Shown piece by piece: positions 39,219 through 59,238 of a stretch of 64,000 nucleotides of DNA. The notes under the pieces were generated by a model, which had not been told where the DNA came from, did no database searches, and saw only the letters and a program-made list of their open reading frames with translations. Both the position numbers and the translations under genes were made by a program. Source of the stretch: a virus (taxonomy: Duplodnaviria > Heunggongvirae > Uroviricota > Caudoviricetes); IMG/VR virus record IMGVR_UViG_2974747673_000001, positions 66,915 through 130,914 of that record; one strand, written 5' to 3'. The stretch's first letter is position 1. Each line of letters opens with the position of its first letter.

Positions 39219-40028
39219 TTAATCTAATTGTATAAGTGTATTAGTACCATTGCCTTGAACTTTTGGAAGTTGTCCATTCCATTTTTCAATAGCCATCTTT
39301 CTAAGTAATTGTGGACTAAGTGAATTACTTTCAATAGCATTAGCTTTTGCTTTTAATTCCTTTTCTTTTAGTTCATATTCTGCCAATTTAACTTTGTTCT
39401 CTTGTTCCACTAATAATTTTTGTTGGTATGCTTTAGCAGTTTCAACTTCTTGTTCTGCAACCTTTTTCTTTTCAATAGCTCTTTCATAATCATCACTAAA
39501 ATCGTGATTAACTAAACTAACATTACTAACTGAAATACCATATAAAGCAAAGTCATCTTTTAAATCCTCATATATTTGTTTTGAAATTTCTGCTCTTTTA
39601 GACACAAATTCTTCTATTGTATATCTTGAAATAGTTGCTTGAACTATCTCTTTAACTCTTGGTCTTATAAATCTACTTTCATATTTTGACTGAAAAGCAG
39701 TATACAATTTCATAGGGTCAATAATACTAGCTTGTACAGTAAATTCTAGTTTTATACTTTGCATATCTTTTGTACTCACTTCCATAGTTGTATCCATTTC
39801 ATCTGTCTTACCAAAGATATATGTTTTCTCTCTTGTTTCCATATAAGTTCTACTTTGAACAAAAGGTATTTTAAAGTGTAATCCCTCTGTTTCTATTTTT
39901 GATACTTTACCAAAATTACTGATAATAGCAACTTCCCCTGTATCTACTGTATACCCATTCCAAAATAATAAAGCTAATATAATAACTACTACTCCACCTA
40001 AAATTCCTAATTTAATTTGTTTTTGCAT
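39219..40028 (-). CDS. SPFH/band-7 (prohibitin/HflK-like) membrane protein
   Basis: N-terminal transmembrane segment, then 'YTVDTGEVAIISNFGKVSKI' SPFH core and a coiled-coil C-terminus. Confidence 0.65.
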   Translation of the reverse strand: MQKQIKLGILGGVVVIILALLFWNGYTVDTGEVAIISNFGKVSKIETEGLHFKIPFVQSRTYMETREKTYIFGKTDEMDTTMEVSTKDMQSIKLEFTVQASIIDPMKLYTAFQSKYESRFIRPRVKEIVQATISRYTIEEFVSKRAEISKQIYEDLKDDFALYGISVSNVSLVNHDFSDDYERAIEKKKVAEQEVETAKAYQQKLLVEQENKVKLAEYELKEKELKAKANAIESNSLSPQLLRKMAIEKWNGQLPKVQGNGTNTLIQLD

Positions 40029-40669: not shown

Positions 40670-41422
40670 TCACTCTCCTATATAAACTAATTTTTCAATA
40701 TAATCTTTATTATCTTTAAAAATTGGTATTTCTTTATCTAATACCCAACCTTTATCTGTTTTGATACAACAAGTACCTCTCTTTTCACAAGTTAGAAATG
40801 AATGATAATTTACACCTACATTATCTAACATATCTACTATATCTTTTCCATTCTTATTTTCTAATTCATTATGAGTGAAATAAGCTCTACCTATCATTTG
40901 TATTGCATTTTTAATAGCATCTTGTTGTCGCCAAACAAAATAATTATTGACTTCTTCTTTTTGTAAATTGAATGCTCTACTATCAAATACTGTTAAATCT
41001 TTAGTTTTTTGTCTTAGTAGAGTTCTATATTCTGCACTTCCTTTCATATCATAGCAATAATTCTCAACATTATATCTAAATATAATATTAAAATAAACAC
41101 TAGCCATACTAGATGTAATACTAACAACTTTACTTAAATTATTATCAAACCAAGCACTGCTCTCTAAATTCTCATAATCTATTAACAATAAACTAATCTC
41201 ATCAGATTGAGTATAACCTAGTACACAACCTTGAACATTCTCACATAAGTATTTCAGAGTATCTTGCATAGATTCCATAAATATGTGGTCAAAGGGTTTT
41301 TTCATACCTTTTGTAAATGTATGAAATGCTTTACCATCAATTCTTATAATAACAGGTGTTCTACATATTAAATAATGTCTAGTAACATACTCATACTTTT
41401 TCATTCTTTCATCTAATTTCAT
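40670..41422 (-). CDS. Thg1-like protein (tRNA-His guanylyltransferase family, 3'-5' polymerase)
   Basis: N-terminal 'KYEYVTRHY...CRTPVIIRIDGKAFHTF' matches the Thg1/TLP signature (F.YVR.FE......Y.VVRIDGR.FH.F). Length 250 aa. Confidence 0.7.
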   Translation of the reverse strand: MKLDERMKKYEYVTRHYLICRTPVIIRIDGKAFHTFTKGMKKPFDHIFMESMQDTLKYLCENVQGCVLGYTQSDEISLLLIDYENLESSAWFDNNLSKVVSITSSMASVYFNIIFRYNVENYCYDMKGSAEYRTLLRQKTKDLTVFDSRAFNLQKEEVNNYFVWRQQDAIKNAIQMIGRAYFTHNELENKNGKDIVDMLDNVGVNYHSFLTCEKRGTCCIKTDKGWVLDKEIPIFKDNKDYIEKLVYIGE

Positions 41423-54793: not shown

Positions 54794-55159
54794 ATGGTAG
54801 ATATTGGAAATTTAAAAGATTTTGATATATTTAAAAATGAAATTTTAAGAAATTTAGGATTAGTAGTAAAAACTTTTAAAATTATTTATAATGAAGAAAA
54901 TAAAATACCTATAGTATTCTTAGAATTATATGAGGATAACGAAGAAATTAAAAATAAACTAACTCAAGTTTTAAATACACTAAATATTATAGATGATTTT
55001 TTAACTTTAGGATTGAATATTGAAATTTCTTATGGAAATGAGGATTTAACAATAACTGCTTTAGATGGTAGAGAAATTTTAAATAGAGATTTTGGTAGAT
55101 ATTTGATAACTCATTTATATTCTACTATAATAAATTATAAAGGAGATGTGATAGAATGA
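54794..55159 (+). CDS. hypothetical protein
   Basis: 121 aa. Confidence 0.4.
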   Translation: MVDIGNLKDFDIFKNEILRNLGLVVKTFKIIYNEENKIPIVFLELYEDNEEIKNKLTQVLNTLNIIDDFLTLGLNIEISYGNEDLTITALDGREILNRDFGRYLITHLYSTIINYKGDVIE

Positions 55160-57372
55160 GAACATTATTATTAATGAGAGGAGCTATGGCTTCAGGTAAA
55201 AGTCAATTTATAAAGGATAATAATTTACAACCTTATACTTTATGTGCAGATGACTTCAGAGTTGCAATATGTAATCCTATTTTATCATTAGATGGAGAAT
55301 TTTCTATTAGCCAAAAAAATGATAGACTAGCTTGGAATATGTTGTTACAATGTCTTGAAGAAAGAATGAAAAGAGGGGATTTTACAGTTATAGATGCTAC
55401 TCATTCCACTCAAAAGATGTTAAATAATTATAAGGCATTGGCAGAAATGTATAAGTATACTATATTTGTAAAACAATTAGATGTACCTTTGGAAACTTGT
55501 TTAGAAAGAAATAGAACTAGAGATAAATATAAATTTGTTCCAGAAGAAGCTATAAAGAGATGTCATACTTTAATTAGTCAAACAGAATTATCAAAAGGTG
55601 TAAAAAAAATTGATAAAATAGAAGATATTAATAATTTCTATGTAGATAATATTACAGACAAATATAACAGAGTTATTATAGTTGGAGATGTGCATTCTTG
55701 TAATACAGTTTTAGGACAAATGTTTGATAAAGAGGAATATAGAGAAGATACACTATATGTATTTTTAGGAGATTATTTAGATAGAGGAATAGAACATAAA
55801 GAAACTTTAAAGAGAATGATGTACTTATCTACTTTGAAAAATGTAATATTGCTTGAAGGAAACCACGAATTAAATTTTGGTGGTTGGTGTCAAGGTAGAG
55901 AAATAAAAAGTAAAAAGTTCTTAAATGAAACTCTTAAAATTTTAATAGATGGACTTAATGATGAAGAAATAGAACAATTTAAGTCAAAAGGTAGACAATT
56001 CTATAAAAAACAAAGACAAGCCTATGCTTTTGAATTTGAGGGTAAAAAGTATTTATGTACACATGCAGGATTACCTAGTGTGCCTTTGATGACATATATT
56101 GCAACAGATGATATGATTAAAGGTATAGGAGATTATGAAGATGATATTAGTGGTATCTATGAAAATAATTATGCACTAGGAAAATGTCAAGACTTTATTC
56201 AAATATTTGGACATAGAGCTAATAAATGTACTGAACATTCTATTAATTTAGAGGGTCAAGTAGAATTTGGTGGAAATTTAATGTACTATGTACTTGAAAA
56301 AGGAAAAGAACCTAGATTAGAAAGTATAAAGAATGAAGTTTATGATAAAGAATATTTCAATAGAGAAAGAGAAAAATATAATAGAACAGAAAGTAAGAAT
56401 TTAACTCAAAACGAAGAAGTAAATAAACTTATATTAAGTAAATTAGTAAAAGTAAAACAATGTGAACCTAACTTATTATCTTTGAATTTTGGAGATAATG
56501 TTTTTAGAAAGAAACAATGGAATGATATTACAGTTAAAGCTAGAGGACTTTTTGTAGATAAGGAAACAGGTAATGTATCTATAAGAAGCTACAATAAATT
56601 CTTTAATTATGGAGAACTTAAAGAAACAAGAGATGAGTATTTGATGAAAAATTTACAATATCCATTAATAGCAAAATATAAAGAAAATGGATTTTTAGGT
56701 CTTATGTCCGTAGTGAATGGAGAGGTTGTATTAGCGACAAAATCAACTACACAAGGGGATTATAAAGAGTATTTTCAAGAACTATGGAATAGAGAGAACT
56801 CAAACATAAAGATGTATTTACAAGAATTTGCAAGTAAAGAAAATTGTACTTTCATATTTGAAGTTAAATCTTTTAAAGACAAACATATAATAGATTTTAA
56901 TAAAGAGGAACTTGTCTTATTGGATGTTGTTAAAAACAGTTTAGAGGTCAATGGAATTAATATTGATACAAATTATAGCTCAAAGTGTTTAAATGAGTTT
57001 TATAACTATGTGAGAGCCTTAGATTGCAAAATAATAAGAGTAATAGATACATATGCTATATTAGATGACTTCGAACATTTTAAAGAGTTATTACAAACTT
57101 TTAAATATAATGCTTTTGAAGGATTTGTATTCACAGACCAAAATGGATTTATGTTTAAATGGAAATCTGATTATTATTTAAAGTGGAAGAGTGTAAGATA
57201 CTGTTATCAATATTATTTAAAACATTGGCAAGAAGCATTTCCATTTAGAATCTGTAAAGATAGTTTTGAGATTAATTTTATGAAATGGGTTACAGAGCAA
57301 GACATTAATTGGTTAAAATCTGTCAACTATGTAGATGTAATAAATGAATATAAAAATAATATAGGTAGTTAA
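55156..57372 (+). CDS. trifunctional polynucleotide kinase / metallophosphoesterase 2',3'-phosphatase / Rnl1-type RNA ligase (Pnkp-like RNA repair enzyme)
   Basis: Kinase P-loop 'GAMASGKSQF'. Lambda-phosphatase-type motifs 'GDVHSC', 'GDYLDRG', 'GNHE'. Ligase motif I 'KYKENGFLG' (compare T4 Rnl1 KEDG), motif IV 'FEGFVF', motif V 'FKWKS'. The domain order matches C. thermocellum Pnkp. Confidence 0.7.
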   Translation: MRTLLLMRGAMASGKSQFIKDNNLQPYTLCADDFRVAICNPILSLDGEFSISQKNDRLAWNMLLQCLEERMKRGDFTVIDATHSTQKMLNNYKALAEMYKYTIFVKQLDVPLETCLERNRTRDKYKFVPEEAIKRCHTLISQTELSKGVKKIDKIEDINNFYVDNITDKYNRVIIVGDVHSCNTVLGQMFDKEEYREDTLYVFLGDYLDRGIEHKETLKRMMYLSTLKNVILLEGNHELNFGGWCQGREIKSKKFLNETLKILIDGLNDEEIEQFKSKGRQFYKKQRQAYAFEFEGKKYLCTHAGLPSVPLMTYIATDDMIKGIGDYEDDISGIYENNYALGKCQDFIQIFGHRANKCTEHSINLEGQVEFGGNLMYYVLEKGKEPRLESIKNEVYDKEYFNREREKYNRTESKNLTQNEEVNKLILSKLVKVKQCEPNLLSLNFGDNVFRKKQWNDITVKARGLFVDKETGNVSIRSYNKFFNYGELKETRDEYLMKNLQYPLIAKYKENGFLGLMSVVNGEVVLATKSTTQGDYKEYFQELWNRENSNIKMYLQEFASKENCTFIFEVKSFKDKHIIDFNKEELVLLDVVKNSLEVNGINIDTNYSSKCLNEFYNYVRALDCKIIRVIDTYAILDDFEHFKELLQTFKYNAFEGFVFTDQNGFMFKWKSDYYLKWKSVRYCYQYYLKHWQEAFPFRICKDSFEINFMKWVTEQDINWLKSVNYVDVINEYKNNIGS

Positions 57373-57724: not shown

Positions 57725-57753
57725 TTGACAAAGTTAATTTTGTATGTTATACT
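57725..57753 (+). promoter_or_regulatory. sigma-A-type promoter (TTGACA-N17-TATACT) driving the non-coding leader and tRNA array
   Basis: -35 at 57725-57730 and -10 at 57748-57753. Nearly identical to the minus-strand promoter at 35787-35815. Confidence 0.6.
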
Positions 57754-58279
57754 TATTTTGTAAGATGAAAGAGCTGATTTAGTCGCTAAAGTATATCTTA
57801 CATTTATGGAATACACCAAAACTTTTGGCTGTGGAAGTTGTGATGACACACTCTTTCCTTGTAAGTTCGTGAGAGGTTTCAGACAGCAAGTGATGAGGTA
57901 GTTAGCTAACAAGGTTTGGAACTTACCCTTGCTAATACACCCTTGTCCAATTAAACTTAAAAACGAGTTTTAGGATTTTGACTCTTAAAGATATATCTTA
58001 TTAAAAGCCTTTAAAAATAAAATCAGTTACTCTTTATCATAAAAGAGCCTTTTAAACAGTTCTAGTTTTAGGTTAATAAACGAACTCTTATATAGGTTTA
58101 TCTCTCATTTACCCTATATACTTAAAAATGAGAGGTTAAATAGATACTCAACTAAAAGATTGTACTAAGTTTCCATTGTAGATTTTGAGTAAGATTACAC
58201 ATTATAATATTCGCCTCCTTTCAGAATATAAATGAGTTGAGTATCTATTTAATACTAAAAAGAAGTAGTATTTTATATG
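57754..58279 (+). ncRNA. ~520 nt non-coding transcribed leader or candidate structured RNA upstream of the tRNA array
   Basis: No credible ORF. Lies downstream of the strong promoter. Locally elevated GC (57830-57950). 8-bp helix GTAAGTTC/GAACTTAC (57864-71 / 57925-32). Palindrome GTTAGCTAAC (57905-14). 15-bp inverted repeat AAATAGATACTCAAC/GTTGAGTATCTATTT (58139-53 / 58236-50). Confidence 0.3.
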
Positions 58280-58353
58280 GTGGGAGTAGTGTAATGGTAG
58301 CACAACAGTTTGTGGCACTGTTAGATTGGTTTCAAATACCAACTCTCACACCA
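58280..58353 (+). tRNA. tRNA-His (anticodon GTG) with A73 discriminator, encoded CCA and a genomic G at -1
   Basis: Hand-folded cloverleaf. Acceptor GTGGGAG/CTCTCAC, D stem GTGT/GCAC, anticodon stem ACAGT/ACTGT with loop TTGTGGC, T arm TTGGT-TTCAAAT-ACCAA. Confidence 0.7.
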
Positions 58354-58362
58354 AAACCTTAT

Positions 58363-58436
58363 TGCAGAGTGGAGGAAAAGTACCTCACTAGGCTCATTCC
58401 CTAGAGAAGTGGGAGCATTACCCACCTCTGCCACCA
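58363..58436 (+). tRNA. tRNA with CAT anticodon (Met, fMet or Ile2) and a non-canonical T loop
   Basis: Acceptor TGCAGAG/CTCTGCC with a 1-72 mismatch. D stem GAGG/CCTC. Anticodon stem CTAGG/CCTAG with loop CTCATTC. T stem GTGGG/CCCAC with loop AGCATTA. CCA encoded. Confidence 0.5.
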
Positions 58437-58441
58437 AATAT

Positions 58442-58515
58442 GTACTCTTGACCGATTAGTTAGGTACTTGTCTGCAAAACAAGGTAAATTAGTGCAATTC
58501 TAATAGGGTACTCCA
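58442..58515 (+). tRNA. tRNA-Cys (GCA)
   Basis: Acceptor GTACTCT/AGGGTAC. Anticodon stem CTTGT/ACAAG with loop CTGCAAA. T stem ATTAG/CTAAT with unusual loop TGCAATT. CCA encoded. Confidence 0.55.
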
Positions 58516-58521
58516 AAATAT

Positions 58522-58610
58522 GTGTAGATATGCAAATTGGTGAAGCAAACAGACTGTAAATCTGTTCCCTCGTGGTAAACATGTAGGTTCAAATCCTACT
58601 CTACACACCA
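58522..58610 (+). tRNA. tRNA-Tyr (GTA), type II with long variable arm
   Basis: Perfect acceptor GTGTAGA/TCTACAC. Anticodon stem ACAGA/TCTGT with loop CTGTAAA. 17-nt variable region. T arm GTAGG-TTCAAAT-CCTAC. CCA encoded. Confidence 0.65.
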
Positions 58611-58613
58611 AAT

Positions 58614-58700
58614 AGAGAGTTTGCTTAATTGGTTAAAGCACCAGTCTTGAAAACTGGAGTCGTAACAGACATTAGGGTTCGAGTCCCTAACTCTCTGCCA
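58614..58700 (+). tRNA. tRNA-Ser (TGA), type II
   Basis: Acceptor AGAGAGT/ACTCTCT. D stem GCTT/AAGC. Anticodon stem CCAGT/ACTGG with loop CTTGAAA. Variable hairpin GTC..GAC. T arm TAGGG-TTCGAGT-CCCTA. CCA encoded. Confidence 0.7.
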
Positions 58701-58706
58701 ACATAT

Positions 58707-58782
58707 CTGTGGGTAGTTCAGTTGGTAGAACTCTTGTTTTGGGAACAAGAAGTCGGGAGTTCAAATCTCTCCCCACAGACCA
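58707..58782 (+). tRNA. tRNA-Pro (TGG)
   Basis: Acceptor CTGTGGG/CCCACAG. D stem GTTC/GAAC. Anticodon stem CTTGT/ACAAG with loop TTTGGGA. T arm GGGAG-TTCAAAT-CTCTC. CCA encoded. Confidence 0.7.
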
Positions 58783-58788
58783 TAATAT

Positions 58789-58936
58789 GCCATATTACCT
58801 CAAAGGTAGAGGGTCTATAAGTAGAAATAAGAGATGTGGGTTCGAGTCCTACTTTAAACTTGAGGGTTTAAATAGCTTAATTGGTAAAAGCCTTGTGAAT
58901 TATAGAAAGGTATCAGTTCAAGTCTGATATATGGCA
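58789..58936 (+). tRNA. Split or interleaved tRNA-like locus. Outer tRNA halves are separated by an 83-nt insert that carries a T arm plus 3' acceptor, followed by a 5' acceptor plus D arm of a second tRNA-like unit.
   Basis: Outer unit: acceptor GCCATAT (58789-95) pairs with ATATGGC (58929-35); D arm CCTC-AAAGGTA-GAGG; anticodon stem TCTAT (58814-18) pairs with ATAGA (58902-06); T arm ATCAG-TTCAAGT-CTGAT. Insert: GTGGG-TTCGAGT-CCTAC + TTTAAAC (58836-59), then GTTTAAA-TA-GCTT-AATTGGTAA-AAGC (58866-91). No CCA is encoded. Confidence 0.35.
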
Positions 58937-58965
58937 CATAAAATTAATAAAGGAAAATAAGATAT

Positions 58966-59209: not shown

Positions 59210-59238
59210 TTGACAAAATAAAATTAATATGTTATAAT
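59210..59238 (+). promoter_or_regulatory. sigma-A-type promoter TTGACA-N17-TATAAT
   Basis: -35 at 59210-15 and -10 at 59233-38. Followed by a ~460 bp non-coding leader carrying repeats. Confidence 0.55.

What the first reader, a model, noticed from the sequence alone, without database searches (positions are those of the whole stretch)
40670..41422. Thg1-like 3'-5' polymerase encoded together with a tRNA-His that has a eukaryote-like A73 discriminator
The ORF carries the unmistakable Thg1/TLP N-terminal signature (YV..........VIIRIDGKAFHTF). The phage tRNA-His at 58280-58353 has A73 rather than the bacterial C73, and a genomic G at -1 that cannot pair with A73. In bacteria, G-1 of tRNA-His is normally retained by RNase P because it pairs with C73. 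With A73 it would have to be added post-transcriptionally, which is exactly the eukaryotic Thg1 reaction. The pair suggests the phage supplies both an unusual tRNA-His and the enzyme that matures it (G-1 addition) or repairs 5'-truncated tRNAs (TLP activity). This would complement the ligase-based repair enzyme ~15 kb away.
Basis: partly seen in the sequence, partly recalled or inferred. Interest (0 to 1): 0.72.

Follow-up and report, generated by a model that had tools for sequence, protein, structure and literature searches.

The report
Phage Thg1-like tRNA repair enzyme
A Fusobacterium phage carries an already-annotated 'reverse' (3'-5') RNA polymerase of the bacterial repair type; it is most likely one tool in a phage tRNA-repair kit, not a dedicated partner of the phage's unusual histidine tRNA.

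Summary
The window is the last 64 kb of Fusobacterium phage Fnu1. ORF 40670-41422 (minus strand) is gp147, already annotated in RefSeq as tRNA-His guanylyltransferase. The tRNA-His at 58280-58353 has G1-C72, A73, an encoded CCA and a genomic G at -1.

The enzyme is a bacterial-type Thg1-like protein (TLP). Its best solved relative is BtTLP (E=2e-57), and it lacks both eukaryotic Thg1 markers (KPND, HINNLYN). BtTLP adds G opposite A73 about 50-fold less efficiently than opposite C73.

The genomic G-1 is probably kept, not added. Phage tRNA-His genes with A73 have G at -1 in 9 of 11 lineages, against 2% in other phage tRNAs. The 'AT' leader motif sits one base further upstream for tRNA-His.

TLPs occur in at least 164 GenBank phages and 569 viral contigs. 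Some of these carry a canonical G-1:C73 tRNA-His, some no tRNA-His, and one no tRNA at all.

TLP genes lie beside tRNA arrays and homologues of CCA-adding enzyme, RNA ligase and polynucleotide kinase (33/161 loci against 3/231). This agrees with a published prediction that phage Thg1 belongs to RNA-repair systems.

Most likely role: templated repair of tRNA 5' ends. Restoring position -1 of tRNA-His remains possible as a secondary role.

The parts
40670..41422 (-). gp147, a bacterial-type Thg1-like protein (TLP, 3'-5' RNA polymerase), 250 aa. Catalytic D29 and D74/E75; K42-P43-F44-D45 loop; R165/D168/N172 helix.
   Evidence: Pfam PF04446 E=6.2e-31; phrog_4717 E=1.6e-84; PDB 4KGK BtTLP E=1.7e-57 over residues 3-249. 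The catalytic and loop residues (D29, D74/E75, P43, D45, R165, D168, N172) are invariant, and K42 nearly so, in 15 homologues of 54-81% identity. RefSeq product is 'tRNA-His guanylyltransferase'.
58279..58353 (+). tRNA-His(GTG) including the genome-encoded G-1 (58279). G1-C72, discriminator A73 (58350), encoded CCA (58351-58353). The leader ends ...TATAT before G-1.
   Evidence: ARAGORN; Rfam tRNA 59.6 bits; sequence; fold leaves G-1 and A73 unpaired. Identical in phages FNU2 and FNU3. Relatives L004-L006 change the acceptor stem by compensatory substitutions but keep G-1 and A73.
55156..57372 (+). gp169, a trifunctional RNA end-healing and sealing enzyme: polynucleotide kinase (1-135), metallophosphoesterase (172-316), Rnl1-type RNA ligase (461-674).
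   Evidence: Pfam AAA_33, Metallophos and RNA_lig_T4_1; phrog_8238 full length E=1.2e-175; N-terminal similarity to bacterial Pnkp. Homologues lie 2-9 kb from TLP genes in unrelated phage contigs.
58442..58782 (+). The rest of the tRNA array: Cys(GCA), Tyr(GTA), Ser(TGA), Pro(TGG). All have fully paired acceptor stems (Watson-Crick apart from G-U wobbles), an encoded CCA and an 'AT' dinucleotide directly before +1.
   Evidence: ARAGORN and Rfam; sequence.
57725..57753 (+). Promoter-like site (TTGACA-17-TATACT, TG-extended, 11/12) about 525 nt upstream of tRNA-His. The array is therefore probably made as a precursor that needs 5' processing.
   Evidence: Consensus scan only. The total number of promoter-like sites in the region is not above the shuffled expectation, so this is a lead and not a demonstrated promoter.

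Best explanation
gp147 is a bacterial-type Thg1-like protein. It activates a tRNA 5'-monophosphate with ATP or GTP. It then adds nucleotides in the 3'-5' direction, using the 3' strand of the acceptor stem as a Watson-Crick template, and so rebuilds 5' ends that have lost nucleotides. (This mechanism is inferred from the close homologue BtTLP; it was not tested for gp147.)

In the phage it is one part of a tRNA-maintenance kit. The other parts are gp169 (kinase, phosphatase and Rnl1 ligase, for broken anticodon loops) and the phage's own tRNAs. The kit keeps translation running when tRNAs are attacked during infection.

The G-1 of the phage tRNA-His is most likely genome-encoded and retained by RNase P, despite the G-1/A73 mismatch. 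The enzyme is therefore not obligatorily needed to make it. At most it restores a -1 nucleotide on molecules that were cut at +1.
For: Shown:
- Family and subtype. Pfam, PHROG and PDB matches. KPFD instead of the Thg1-specific KPND, and AIKNAIQ instead of HINNLYN.
- Conservation. The catalytic residues are invariant across homologues.
- Tie to tRNA arrays. TLP genes sit next to tRNA arrays on the same strand in 25/80, 11/80 and 27/80 TLP-anchored loci. Most of these arrays lack tRNA-His.
- Independence from phage tRNAs. Staphylococcus phage PMBT8 has a TLP and no tRNA gene.
- Tie to repair enzymes. Homologues of CCA-adding enzyme, Rnl-type ligase or PNK lie within 10 kb of TLP in 33/161 viral loci, against 3/231 tRNA-His-anchored loci without TLP (Fisher p=4e-11; 11 against 1.5 per Mb).
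- Rhizobium phage RHph_I1_18 has the gene order CCA-transferase, DUF1127, TLP, RNA ligase A, PNK, and then tRNAs.
- In Fnu1 relatives L004/L006, gp169, tRNA-His, tRNA-Pro and TLP lie within 9 kb on one strand.
- Encoded G-1 is under selection (9/11 against 2.1%, p=5e-14). T is at -2 in 73/80 G(-1) tRNA-His genes, which mirrors the T at -1 in 67% of other tRNAs.

From the literature:
- BtTLP prefers 5'-truncated tRNAs of any identity.
- Thg1 neighbourhoods with PNK, RNA ligase and Macro genes were described in 2010.
- Thg1 is listed among phage RNA-repair enzymes in a 2021 review.
Against: - No physiological substrate of any bacterial or phage TLP has been demonstrated. No nuclease that trims tRNA 5' ends in Fusobacterium is known to me.
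- In Fnu1 itself the TLP gene is about 14 kb from gp169, on the other strand, among genes of unknown function.
- The neighbourhood statistics count loci, not independent lineages. The background loci are shorter. The 'CCA-adding' neighbours are tblastn homologues at 24-37% identity, not verified enzymes.
- Retention of an unpaired G-1 by bacterial RNase P is inferred from conservation. It runs against the textbook role of the G-1:C73 pair.
- BtTLP can supply a -1 nucleotide to A73 tRNA-His in yeast.
Confidence: 0.55

Rival explanations
1. Backup or proof-reading for tRNA-His. Because G-1 cannot pair with A73, RNase P cuts part of the precursor at +1. gp147 then restores a -1 nucleotide (G or the templated U) so that HisRS can charge it. 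On this view tRNA-His is the main client, although the enzyme is a TLP.
For: - Plant mitochondria use exactly such a dual route.
- BtTLP complements yeast thg1-delta on A73 tRNA-His, and a -1 nucleotide is present there.
- G-1/A73 tRNA-His genes lie 4-15 kb from TLP genes in Fnu1, L004-6, L011 and L446.
- In the reduced array of L004, His and Pro are the tRNAs retained.
- G-1/A73 genes are about 5% of a general phage tRNA-His sample but 2-3 of about 10 TLP-linked lineages.
Against: - The enrichment rests on very few, partly related lineages (Fnu1, L004, L011 and L446 share the D-arm) and is not significant.
- Four TLP-linked lineages have a canonical G-1:C73 tRNA-His: L128/L424, L255, L472 and Bacillus phage G.
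- Many TLP phages have no tRNA-His near the gene, and PMBT8 has no tRNA.
- Many TLP phages infect Caulobacter, Brevundimonas, Rhizobium and other alphaproteobacteria. A small alphaproteobacterial clade that includes Caulobacter lacks G-1 altogether. Extending that to the other genera rests on my own knowledge.
Confidence: 0.2
2. One reading: obligatory, eukaryote-like maturation. RNase P removes the encoded G, and gp147 adds G-1 opposite A73 on every phage tRNA-His molecule.
For: The A73 discriminator and the G-1/A73 mismatch are real. The literature holds that the C73 pair is a prerequisite for the aberrant RNase P cut. A Thg1-family gene is present in all Fnu1-like genomes seen.
Against: - No KPND or HINNLYN motif.
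- The closest characterised enzyme favours U-1 about 40-fold over G-1 opposite A73.
- If the encoded G were discarded, it would not be conserved. It is G in 9/11 A73 lineages against a 2.1% background, and the AT leader is shifted by one base.
Confidence: 0.12
3. The enzyme acts mainly on something other than ordinary tRNA 5' ends. Candidates are the tRNA-like RNAs next to the array (the CAU element with a 1x72 mismatch, the Y-RNA-like element), or activation of 5' ends (App-RNA) to help ligation.
For: Two conserved tRNA-like elements flank the tRNAs. Anantharaman et al. raised ligation via a 5'-App intermediate as a possibility.
Against: There is no enrichment of 5' mismatches in tRNAs of TLP-linked arrays. 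These elements are restricted to Fnu1-like phages, while the TLP family is very broad. No biochemical precedent is known.
Confidence: 0.1

Closest known systems
Bacillus thuringiensis TLP (BtTLP, PDB 4KGK/4KGM)
   Same: Full-length sequence similarity (E=1.7e-57, residues 3-249). Same carboxylates, the same KPFD loop with the ATP-contacting lysine (BtTLP K43 = K42 here), and the same RQQDAxKN helix.
   Different: It is phage-encoded, and its activity is untested. BtTLP is a cellular protein with no known in vivo substrate.
Eukaryotic Thg1 (yeast, human 3OTB, Candida 3WBZ)
   Same: Same fold family and catalytic residues. The substrate context resembles the eukaryotic one, because the tRNA-His has A73.
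   Different: Only distant similarity (E=1e-6 to 1e-9). KPFD instead of KPND, and no HINNLYN motif. In eukaryotes G-1 is not encoded, whereas here it is encoded and conserved.
Phage and bacterial RNA-repair toolkits: T4 Pnkp/Rnl1, bacterial Pnkp, and the RNA-repair systems of jumbo phages (Iyer et al. 2021; Anantharaman et al. 2010)
   Same: Co-occurrence of PNK/phosphatase, Rnl1-type ligase, tRNA genes, CCA-adding homologues and Thg1.
   Different: Fnu1 is a 131-kb siphovirus, not a jumbo phage. Its kinase, phosphatase and ligase are fused in one 738-aa protein. No CCA-adding homologue was found in this window.
Plant mitochondrial tRNA-His (encoded G-1, mixed RNase P cleavage, re-guanylylation)
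   Same: An encoded G-1 plus a possible enzymatic backup.
   Different: This is a bacterial virus with an A73 mismatch. The dual route is only hypothetical here.
Dictyostelium TLP2 and archaeal TLPs that add G-1 opposite C73
   Same: TLP-type enzymes that serve tRNA-His maturation.
   Different: They work by templated addition opposite C73. The Fnu1 tRNA-His has A73, so a templated addition would give U-1.

Membership tests
Thg1/TLP superfamily (Pfam PF04446) | Thg1 catalytic domain scoring above the Pfam gathering cutoff | tested here: met
   107.5 bits against a cutoff of 29.2, E=6.2e-31, profile positions 2-129 of 130.
Thg1/TLP superfamily (Pfam PF04446) | Three metal-binding carboxylates (human D29, D76, E77) | tested here: met
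   D29 in RIDGK and D74/E75 in QSDE align to the corresponding residues of 3OTB, 3WBZ and 4KGK. They are invariant in 15 homologues.
Thg1/TLP superfamily (Pfam PF04446) | KPxD loop and the R..D...N helix facing the incoming NTP | tested here: met
   K42-P43-F44-D45 and R165, D168, N172. The features are defined.
Thg1/TLP superfamily (Pfam PF04446) | 3'-5' nucleotide addition activity | not testable with these tools
   Needs an enzyme assay.
Eukaryotic-type Thg1 (non-templated G-1 opposite A73) | Asn in the KPND loop, conserved only in Thg1 orthologues | tested here: not met
   KPFD here; KPND in human and Candida Thg1 in the same alignment.
Eukaryotic-type Thg1 (non-templated G-1 opposite A73) | HINNLYN motif.
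   DAIKNAIQ aligns to DCHINNLYN of Candida Thg1.
Eukaryotic-type Thg1 (non-templated G-1 opposite A73) | Closest similarity to Thg1 orthologues | tested here: not met
   E=1.5e-6 to 2.5e-9 for Thg1 structures, against 1.7e-57 for BtTLP.
Bacterial TLP (BtTLP-like 5'-end repair enzymes) | Full-length homology to BtTLP, including the C-terminal region | tested here: met
   Two HMMER segments cover residues 3-117 and 140-249.
Bacterial TLP (BtTLP-like 5'-end repair enzymes) | Genomic association with PNK, RNA ligase and other RNA-repair genes | tested here: met
   33/161 against 3/231 loci; the cassette in phage RHph_I1_18; L004, L131/132, L466, L470 and L476. In Fnu1 itself the partner gene is about 14 kb away.
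Bacterial TLP (BtTLP-like 5'-end repair enzymes) | Template-dependent repair of 5'-truncated tRNAs, preferred over N-1 addition | not testable with these tools
   Known for BtTLP; untested for gp147.
Canonical bacterial tRNA-His | GUG anticodon and a genome-encoded G-1 | tested here: met
Canonical bacterial tRNA-His | C73 pairing with G-1 (8-bp acceptor stem) | tested here: not met
   A73 directly precedes the encoded CCA.
Eukaryote-type tRNA-His | A73 with G-1 not encoded (added by Thg1) | tested here: not met
   A73 is present, but G is encoded at -1 and conserved in 9/11 A73 phage lineages.

The most novel reading that the evidence does not exclude
Fnu1-like phages, and a wider family of phage tRNA-His genes with G-1 opposite A73, may run a virus-encoded tRNA-His identity pathway. 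The mismatch would make host RNase P cut partly or wholly at +1. The phage TLP would then put a -1 nucleotide back. That would be the first physiological substrate for a bacterial-type TLP, and a bacterial-virus counterpart of the eukaryotic Thg1 step.
Probability: 0.2. Interest if true: 0.6.

Novelty: already known. Interest (0 to 1): 0.3.

Why it matters
The in vivo role of bacterial-type Thg1-like proteins is still an open question in the 3'-5' polymerase field. Phages that carry the gene beside tRNA arrays, CCA-adding homologues and RNA ligases offer a tractable system for finding the natural substrate. A culturable Fusobacterium phage that combines a TLP with a G-1/A73 tRNA-His would let two readings be separated with a few experiments: general 5'-end repair, or maintenance of tRNA-His identity. 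As a genomic finding, however, it is ordinary. The gene and the tRNA are annotated, and the repair-kit reading is already published.

Tried and rejected
1. 5'-editing idea (TLP replaces mismatched 5' nucleotides, as in amoeba mitochondria). Non-Watson-Crick pairs at 1-72, 2-71 and 3-70 are no more frequent in 206 tRNAs of TLP-linked arrays than in 298 background phage tRNAs. All five Fnu1 tRNAs have fully paired acceptor stems (Watson-Crick apart from G-U wobbles). Rejected.

2. Specific association of TLP with non-canonical tRNA-His. Non-canonical genes make up about half of phage tRNA-His genes anyway. TLP-linked lineages split about 4 canonical to 5-7 non-canonical. Not supported. Whole-contig co-occurrence could not be computed, because loci are limited to about 10 kb on each side.

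3. A pattern scan aimed at G-1/A73 genes was too loose. Only 5 of 120 hits were tRNA-His, and none had a TLP in its window.

4. A BLAST search of 12 G-1/A73 tRNA-His genes against GenBank phages found no further A73 genes; the tRNA-His matches that were checked (Bacillus phage G, a Streptomyces phage, an uncultured phage) are canonical C73 genes.

5. Host tRNA-His. I found no way to fetch the Fusobacterium gene. That the host has G-1:C73 rests on the literature rule only.

6. A conserved protein partner next to gp147. gp145, gp146 and gp148 occur only in Fnu1-like phages.

7. gp112 as a Ro/TROVE protein. It has no sequence match in the PDB. Left as a lead.

8. A transcription start at G-1, which would remove the need for RNase P. 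No promoter-like site is placed to start there; the nearest strong one is 525 nt upstream.

Full report
OBSERVATION. The ORF is there, on the minus strand (40670-41422, 250 aa). It is a clear Thg1-family protein: Pfam PF04446 at E=6.2e-31 and phrog_4717 'tRNA-His guanylyltransferase' at E=1.6e-84. ARAGORN and the Rfam tRNA model both find five tRNAs at 58280-58782. The first is tRNA-His(GTG). Its acceptor stem is GTGGGAG/CTCTCAC, followed by A and then an encoded CCA, with a G at 58279. Because the CCA is encoded, the discriminator is unambiguously A73. In a free-energy fold both G-1 and A73 stay unpaired.

WHERE IT COMES FROM. The window is the last 64 kb of Fusobacterium phage Fnu1 (NC_055035.1, 66915-130914). 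The protein is 100% identical in Fnu1, FNU2 and FNU3. RefSeq already names it 'tRNA-His guanylyltransferase'. The tRNA-His is reported in the Fnu1 and FNU2/3 papers, although no RNA feature appears for it in the Fnu1 record as held here. Neither paper discusses the enzyme or the discriminator base.

WHICH KIND OF THG1.
- By sequence the nearest solved structure is the Bacillus thuringiensis Thg1-like protein BtTLP (4KGK, E=1.7e-57, full length). An archaeal TLP scores 3.5e-12, and the eukaryotic Thg1 structures score only 2.5e-9 to 1.5e-6.
- The catalytic carboxylates are present (D29, D74/E75). So are the KPxD loop and the R165/D168/N172 helix. The catalytic and loop residues are invariant, and K42 nearly so, in an alignment of 15 homologues.
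- Two features tied to eukaryotic, non-templated G-1 addition are absent. The loop is KPFD as in BtTLP, not KPND (one search names the Asn as Thg1-specific). DAIKNAIQ stands where Thg1 has DCHINNLYN.
- It is therefore a bacterial-type TLP, not a Thg1 orthologue.
- BtTLP adds G-1 opposite C73 with kcat/KM 5500 M-1 s-1 but only 108 opposite A73. It favours the templated U-1 about 40-fold over G-1 in competition. It prefers 5'-truncated tRNAs of any identity. The same paper shows that BtTLP nevertheless rescues a yeast thg1 deletion on A73 tRNA-His, so -1 addition to an A73 tRNA is inefficient but not impossible.

IS THE ENCODED G-1 THROWN AWAY?
- In 1453 distinct non-His tRNAs, position -1 is T in 67% and G in 2.1%, and position -2 is A in 60%. 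This gives a typical 'AT' just before the mature 5' end.
- Among tRNA-His genes with A73 and G1-C72 there are 11 distinct acceptor stems. Nine of them have G at -1 (binomial p=5e-14). Of all tRNA-His genes with G at -1, 73 of 80 have T at -2.
- In the Fnu1 array the four other tRNAs read ...AT|N1, while tRNA-His reads ...AT|G|G1.
- A diverged Fnu1 relative (L004-6, TLP 78% identical) has changed three acceptor pairs by compensatory substitutions, yet keeps G-1, A73 and the ATATG leader.
- A nucleotide that RNase P discards would not be conserved like this. The U at -2 is a known positive determinant for the aberrant cut.
- My inference is that G-1 is transcribed and largely retained in spite of the mismatch. 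This is an inference from conservation. The textbook view is that the C73 pair is needed, so partial miscleavage remains plausible.

DOES THE ENZYME TRAVEL WITH A73 tRNA-His? The family is large.
- tblastn finds it in 164 GenBank phage records: Bacillus 46, Prevotella (Lak) 15, Caulobacter 13, Mycobacterium 11, jumbo Erwinia, Xanthomonas and Pseudomonas phages, and others.
- It is also in at least 569 IMG/VR contigs, in at least 584 genome or MAG contigs, and in about 8000 protein clusters.
- tRNA-His genes found near TLP genes, or in TLP phages, fall into every class.
  - Canonical G-1:C73: L128/L129/L182/L424; L255, where the tRNA-His starts 27 nt after the TLP stop codon; L472; Bacillus phage G.
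  - G-1/A73: Fnu1 and L004, L011, L446.
  - No G at -1: Bacillus phage PHZU0001, L085, L193, L483.
- In a general sample of 92 distinct phage tRNA-His genes, only about 48% are canonical, 24% have C73 with T at -1, and about 17% have A73. The mixed picture near TLPs is therefore what chance would give.
- G-1/A73 genes may be somewhat over-represented near TLPs. The numbers are tiny, and several of those tRNAs are homologous to each other.
- Most tRNA arrays next to TLP genes contain no tRNA-His.
- Staphylococcus phage PMBT8 encodes a TLP (45.5% identical) and no tRNA at all.
- Many TLP phages infect Caulobacter, Brevundimonas, Rhizobium and related hosts. These hosts belong, or are close, to the alphaproteobacterial clade whose tRNA-His lacks G-1 altogether.

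WHAT IT DOES TRAVEL WITH.
- TLP genes lie beside tRNA arrays, usually on the same strand, in 25/80, 11/80 and 27/80 anchored loci.
- Homologues of a CCA-adding nucleotidyltransferase (20 loci), an Rnl-type RNA ligase (7 loci) or a polynucleotide kinase occur within 10 kb of the TLP in 33 of 161 viral loci. The figure is 3 of 231 for tRNA-His-anchored loci without TLP (Fisher p=4e-11; 11 against 1.5 per Mb).
- Rhizobium phage RHph_I1_18 has the order CCA-transferase, DUF1127, TLP, RNA ligase A, PNK, then tRNA-Lys and tRNA-Gln.
- Full-length homologues of Fnu1 gp169 lie 2-9 kb from TLP in L131/L132, L148/L149, L466, L470 and L476.
- In the Fnu1 relatives L004/L006, gp169, tRNA-His, tRNA-Pro and TLP sit within 9 kb on one strand.
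- gp169 itself is a kinase, metallophosphoesterase and Rnl1 ligase fusion, and it belongs to a full-length phage family.
- Caveats: loci are not independent lineages, background loci are shorter, and the neighbours are identified by tblastn only.

LITERATURE. This context is not new.
- Anantharaman, Iyer and Aravind (2010) reported conserved Thg1 neighbourhoods with PNK, Macro and RNA ligase genes. They proposed tRNA repair roles in cells and in 'certain large DNA viruses'.
- Heinemann et al. show viral members in the Thg1 tree.
- The Bc431v3 paper (2013) flagged the phage gene.
- The 2021 jumbo-phage survey lists Thg1, next to CCA-adding enzyme, RNA ligases and PNK, as a 5'-end restoration enzyme 'especially in the histidinyl tRNA'.
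- The 2019 review of the enzyme family does not mention phages. I found no experimental study of a phage TLP.

MECHANISM I COMMIT TO (confidence 0.55). gp147 activates a tRNA 5'-phosphate with ATP or GTP and then adds Watson-Crick-templated nucleotides in the 3'-5' direction. This rebuilds acceptor-stem 5' ends. It works alongside gp169, which heals and seals anticodon-loop breaks, and alongside the phage's own tRNAs, as a counter-measure to damage to the tRNA pool during infection. Subtype, conservation and genomic context are shown. The chemistry and substrate preference are inferred from BtTLP. The source of the 5' damage is unknown.

RIVALS.
- Backup that restores position -1 of a miscleaved G-1/A73 tRNA-His: 0.2.
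- Another RNA substrate: 0.1.

VERDICT. The gene, the tRNA and the repair-kit reading are already known, so interest is modest. What remains untested and mildly interesting is a recurrent class of phage tRNA-His genes with a conserved, unpairable G-1 opposite A73, and whether TLPs help to maintain them.

Noticed in passing
window 58355-58440 (+); L004 6140-6217: An unannotated tRNA-like element lies between tRNA-His and tRNA-Cys. It has the anticodon loop CTCATTC (CAU), a T stem GTGGG/CCCAC with an odd loop AGCATTA, and the acceptor TGCAGAG/CTCTGCC followed by A73 and CCA, which gives a U1xC72 mismatch. The relative L004 keeps it through compensatory changes and has C1xA72, the mismatch typical of bacterial initiator tRNA. 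ARAGORN and the Rfam tRNA model do not call it. The Fnu1 paper lists a 91-bp 'Ile tRNA'.
   Followed up: partly
window 58783-58945 (+), with gp112 at 17777-19333 (-): Just after tRNA-Pro there is a conserved (85-88% in relatives) structured element closed by an 8-bp stem (TGCCATAT/ATATGGCA). It contains T-arm-like and D-arm-like hairpins. It gives a sub-threshold Rfam YrlA (Y RNA-like) match: 31 bits, E=2.6e-4, gathering score 69. gp112 carries DUF2828 and DUF7788 and matches PHROG 'RNA-binding protein' at E=1e-106. Together they could be a Ro/Y-RNA-like pair. There is no PDB sequence match.
   Followed up: partly
viral loci L297, L309, L316, L318, L329, L334, L339, L351 and others; L193 19177-19249: About a quarter of distinct phage tRNA-His genes in a general sample (22 of 92) have C73 but T, not G, at -1. 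They cannot obtain G-1 by the usual bacterial route, and they are ideal templated substrates for a TLP. One such gene (L193) lies about 8 kb from a TLP gene.
   Followed up: partly
L210 43006-43079 (Bacillus phage PHZU0001, PX023499.1, about 143 kb): This TLP-encoding Bacillus phage has an array of about 20 tRNAs. Its tRNA-His has C1-G72, A73, C at -1 and no CCA, so it has neither G-1 nor G+1.
   Followed up: no
L206 995-4900 (Rhizobium phage RHph_I1_18, MN988519.1): A compact cassette with the gene order CCA-tRNA nucleotidyltransferase, DUF1127, TLP, RNA ligase A, polynucleotide kinase, followed by tRNA-Lys and tRNA-Gln.
   Followed up: partly
L207 and L292 (Staphylococcus phage PMBT8, MK893987.1, whole genome): An 88-kb phage with a TLP (45.5% identical to gp147) and no detectable tRNA gene.
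   Followed up: yes
L255 10001-10925: The TLP gene is embedded in a tRNA array, and a canonical tRNA-His (G-1:C73) starts 27 nt after the TLP stop codon.
   Followed up: no
window 39219-40028 (-), gp144: An SPFH/prohibitin-family protein (phrog_200) lies two genes downstream of the TLP. Homologues at 25-34% identity lie within 10 kb of TLP genes in about 15 unrelated loci, for example L200, L466, L470 and L483. No background rate was computed.
   Followed up: no
window 13830-14261 (-), gp106: By its GenBank note (O-acetyl-ADP-ribose deacetylase-like) this may be a Macro-domain protein; PHROGs calls it only 'phosphatase' (phrog_335), and I did not run Pfam on it. Macro domains were reported as recurrent neighbours of Thg1 and PNK in bacteria.
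   Followed up: no
window 58280-58782; NC_055035.1 125194-125696: No tRNA features appear for the five tRNA genes in the RefSeq or GenBank Fnu1 records as held here (no feature under the match), although FNU2 and FNU3 annotate them.
   Followed up: yes
window 59210-59238 (+): A perfect sigma-70 consensus (TTGACA-17-TATAAT with a TG extension) lies just downstream of the tRNA and Y-RNA-like block.
   Followed up: no
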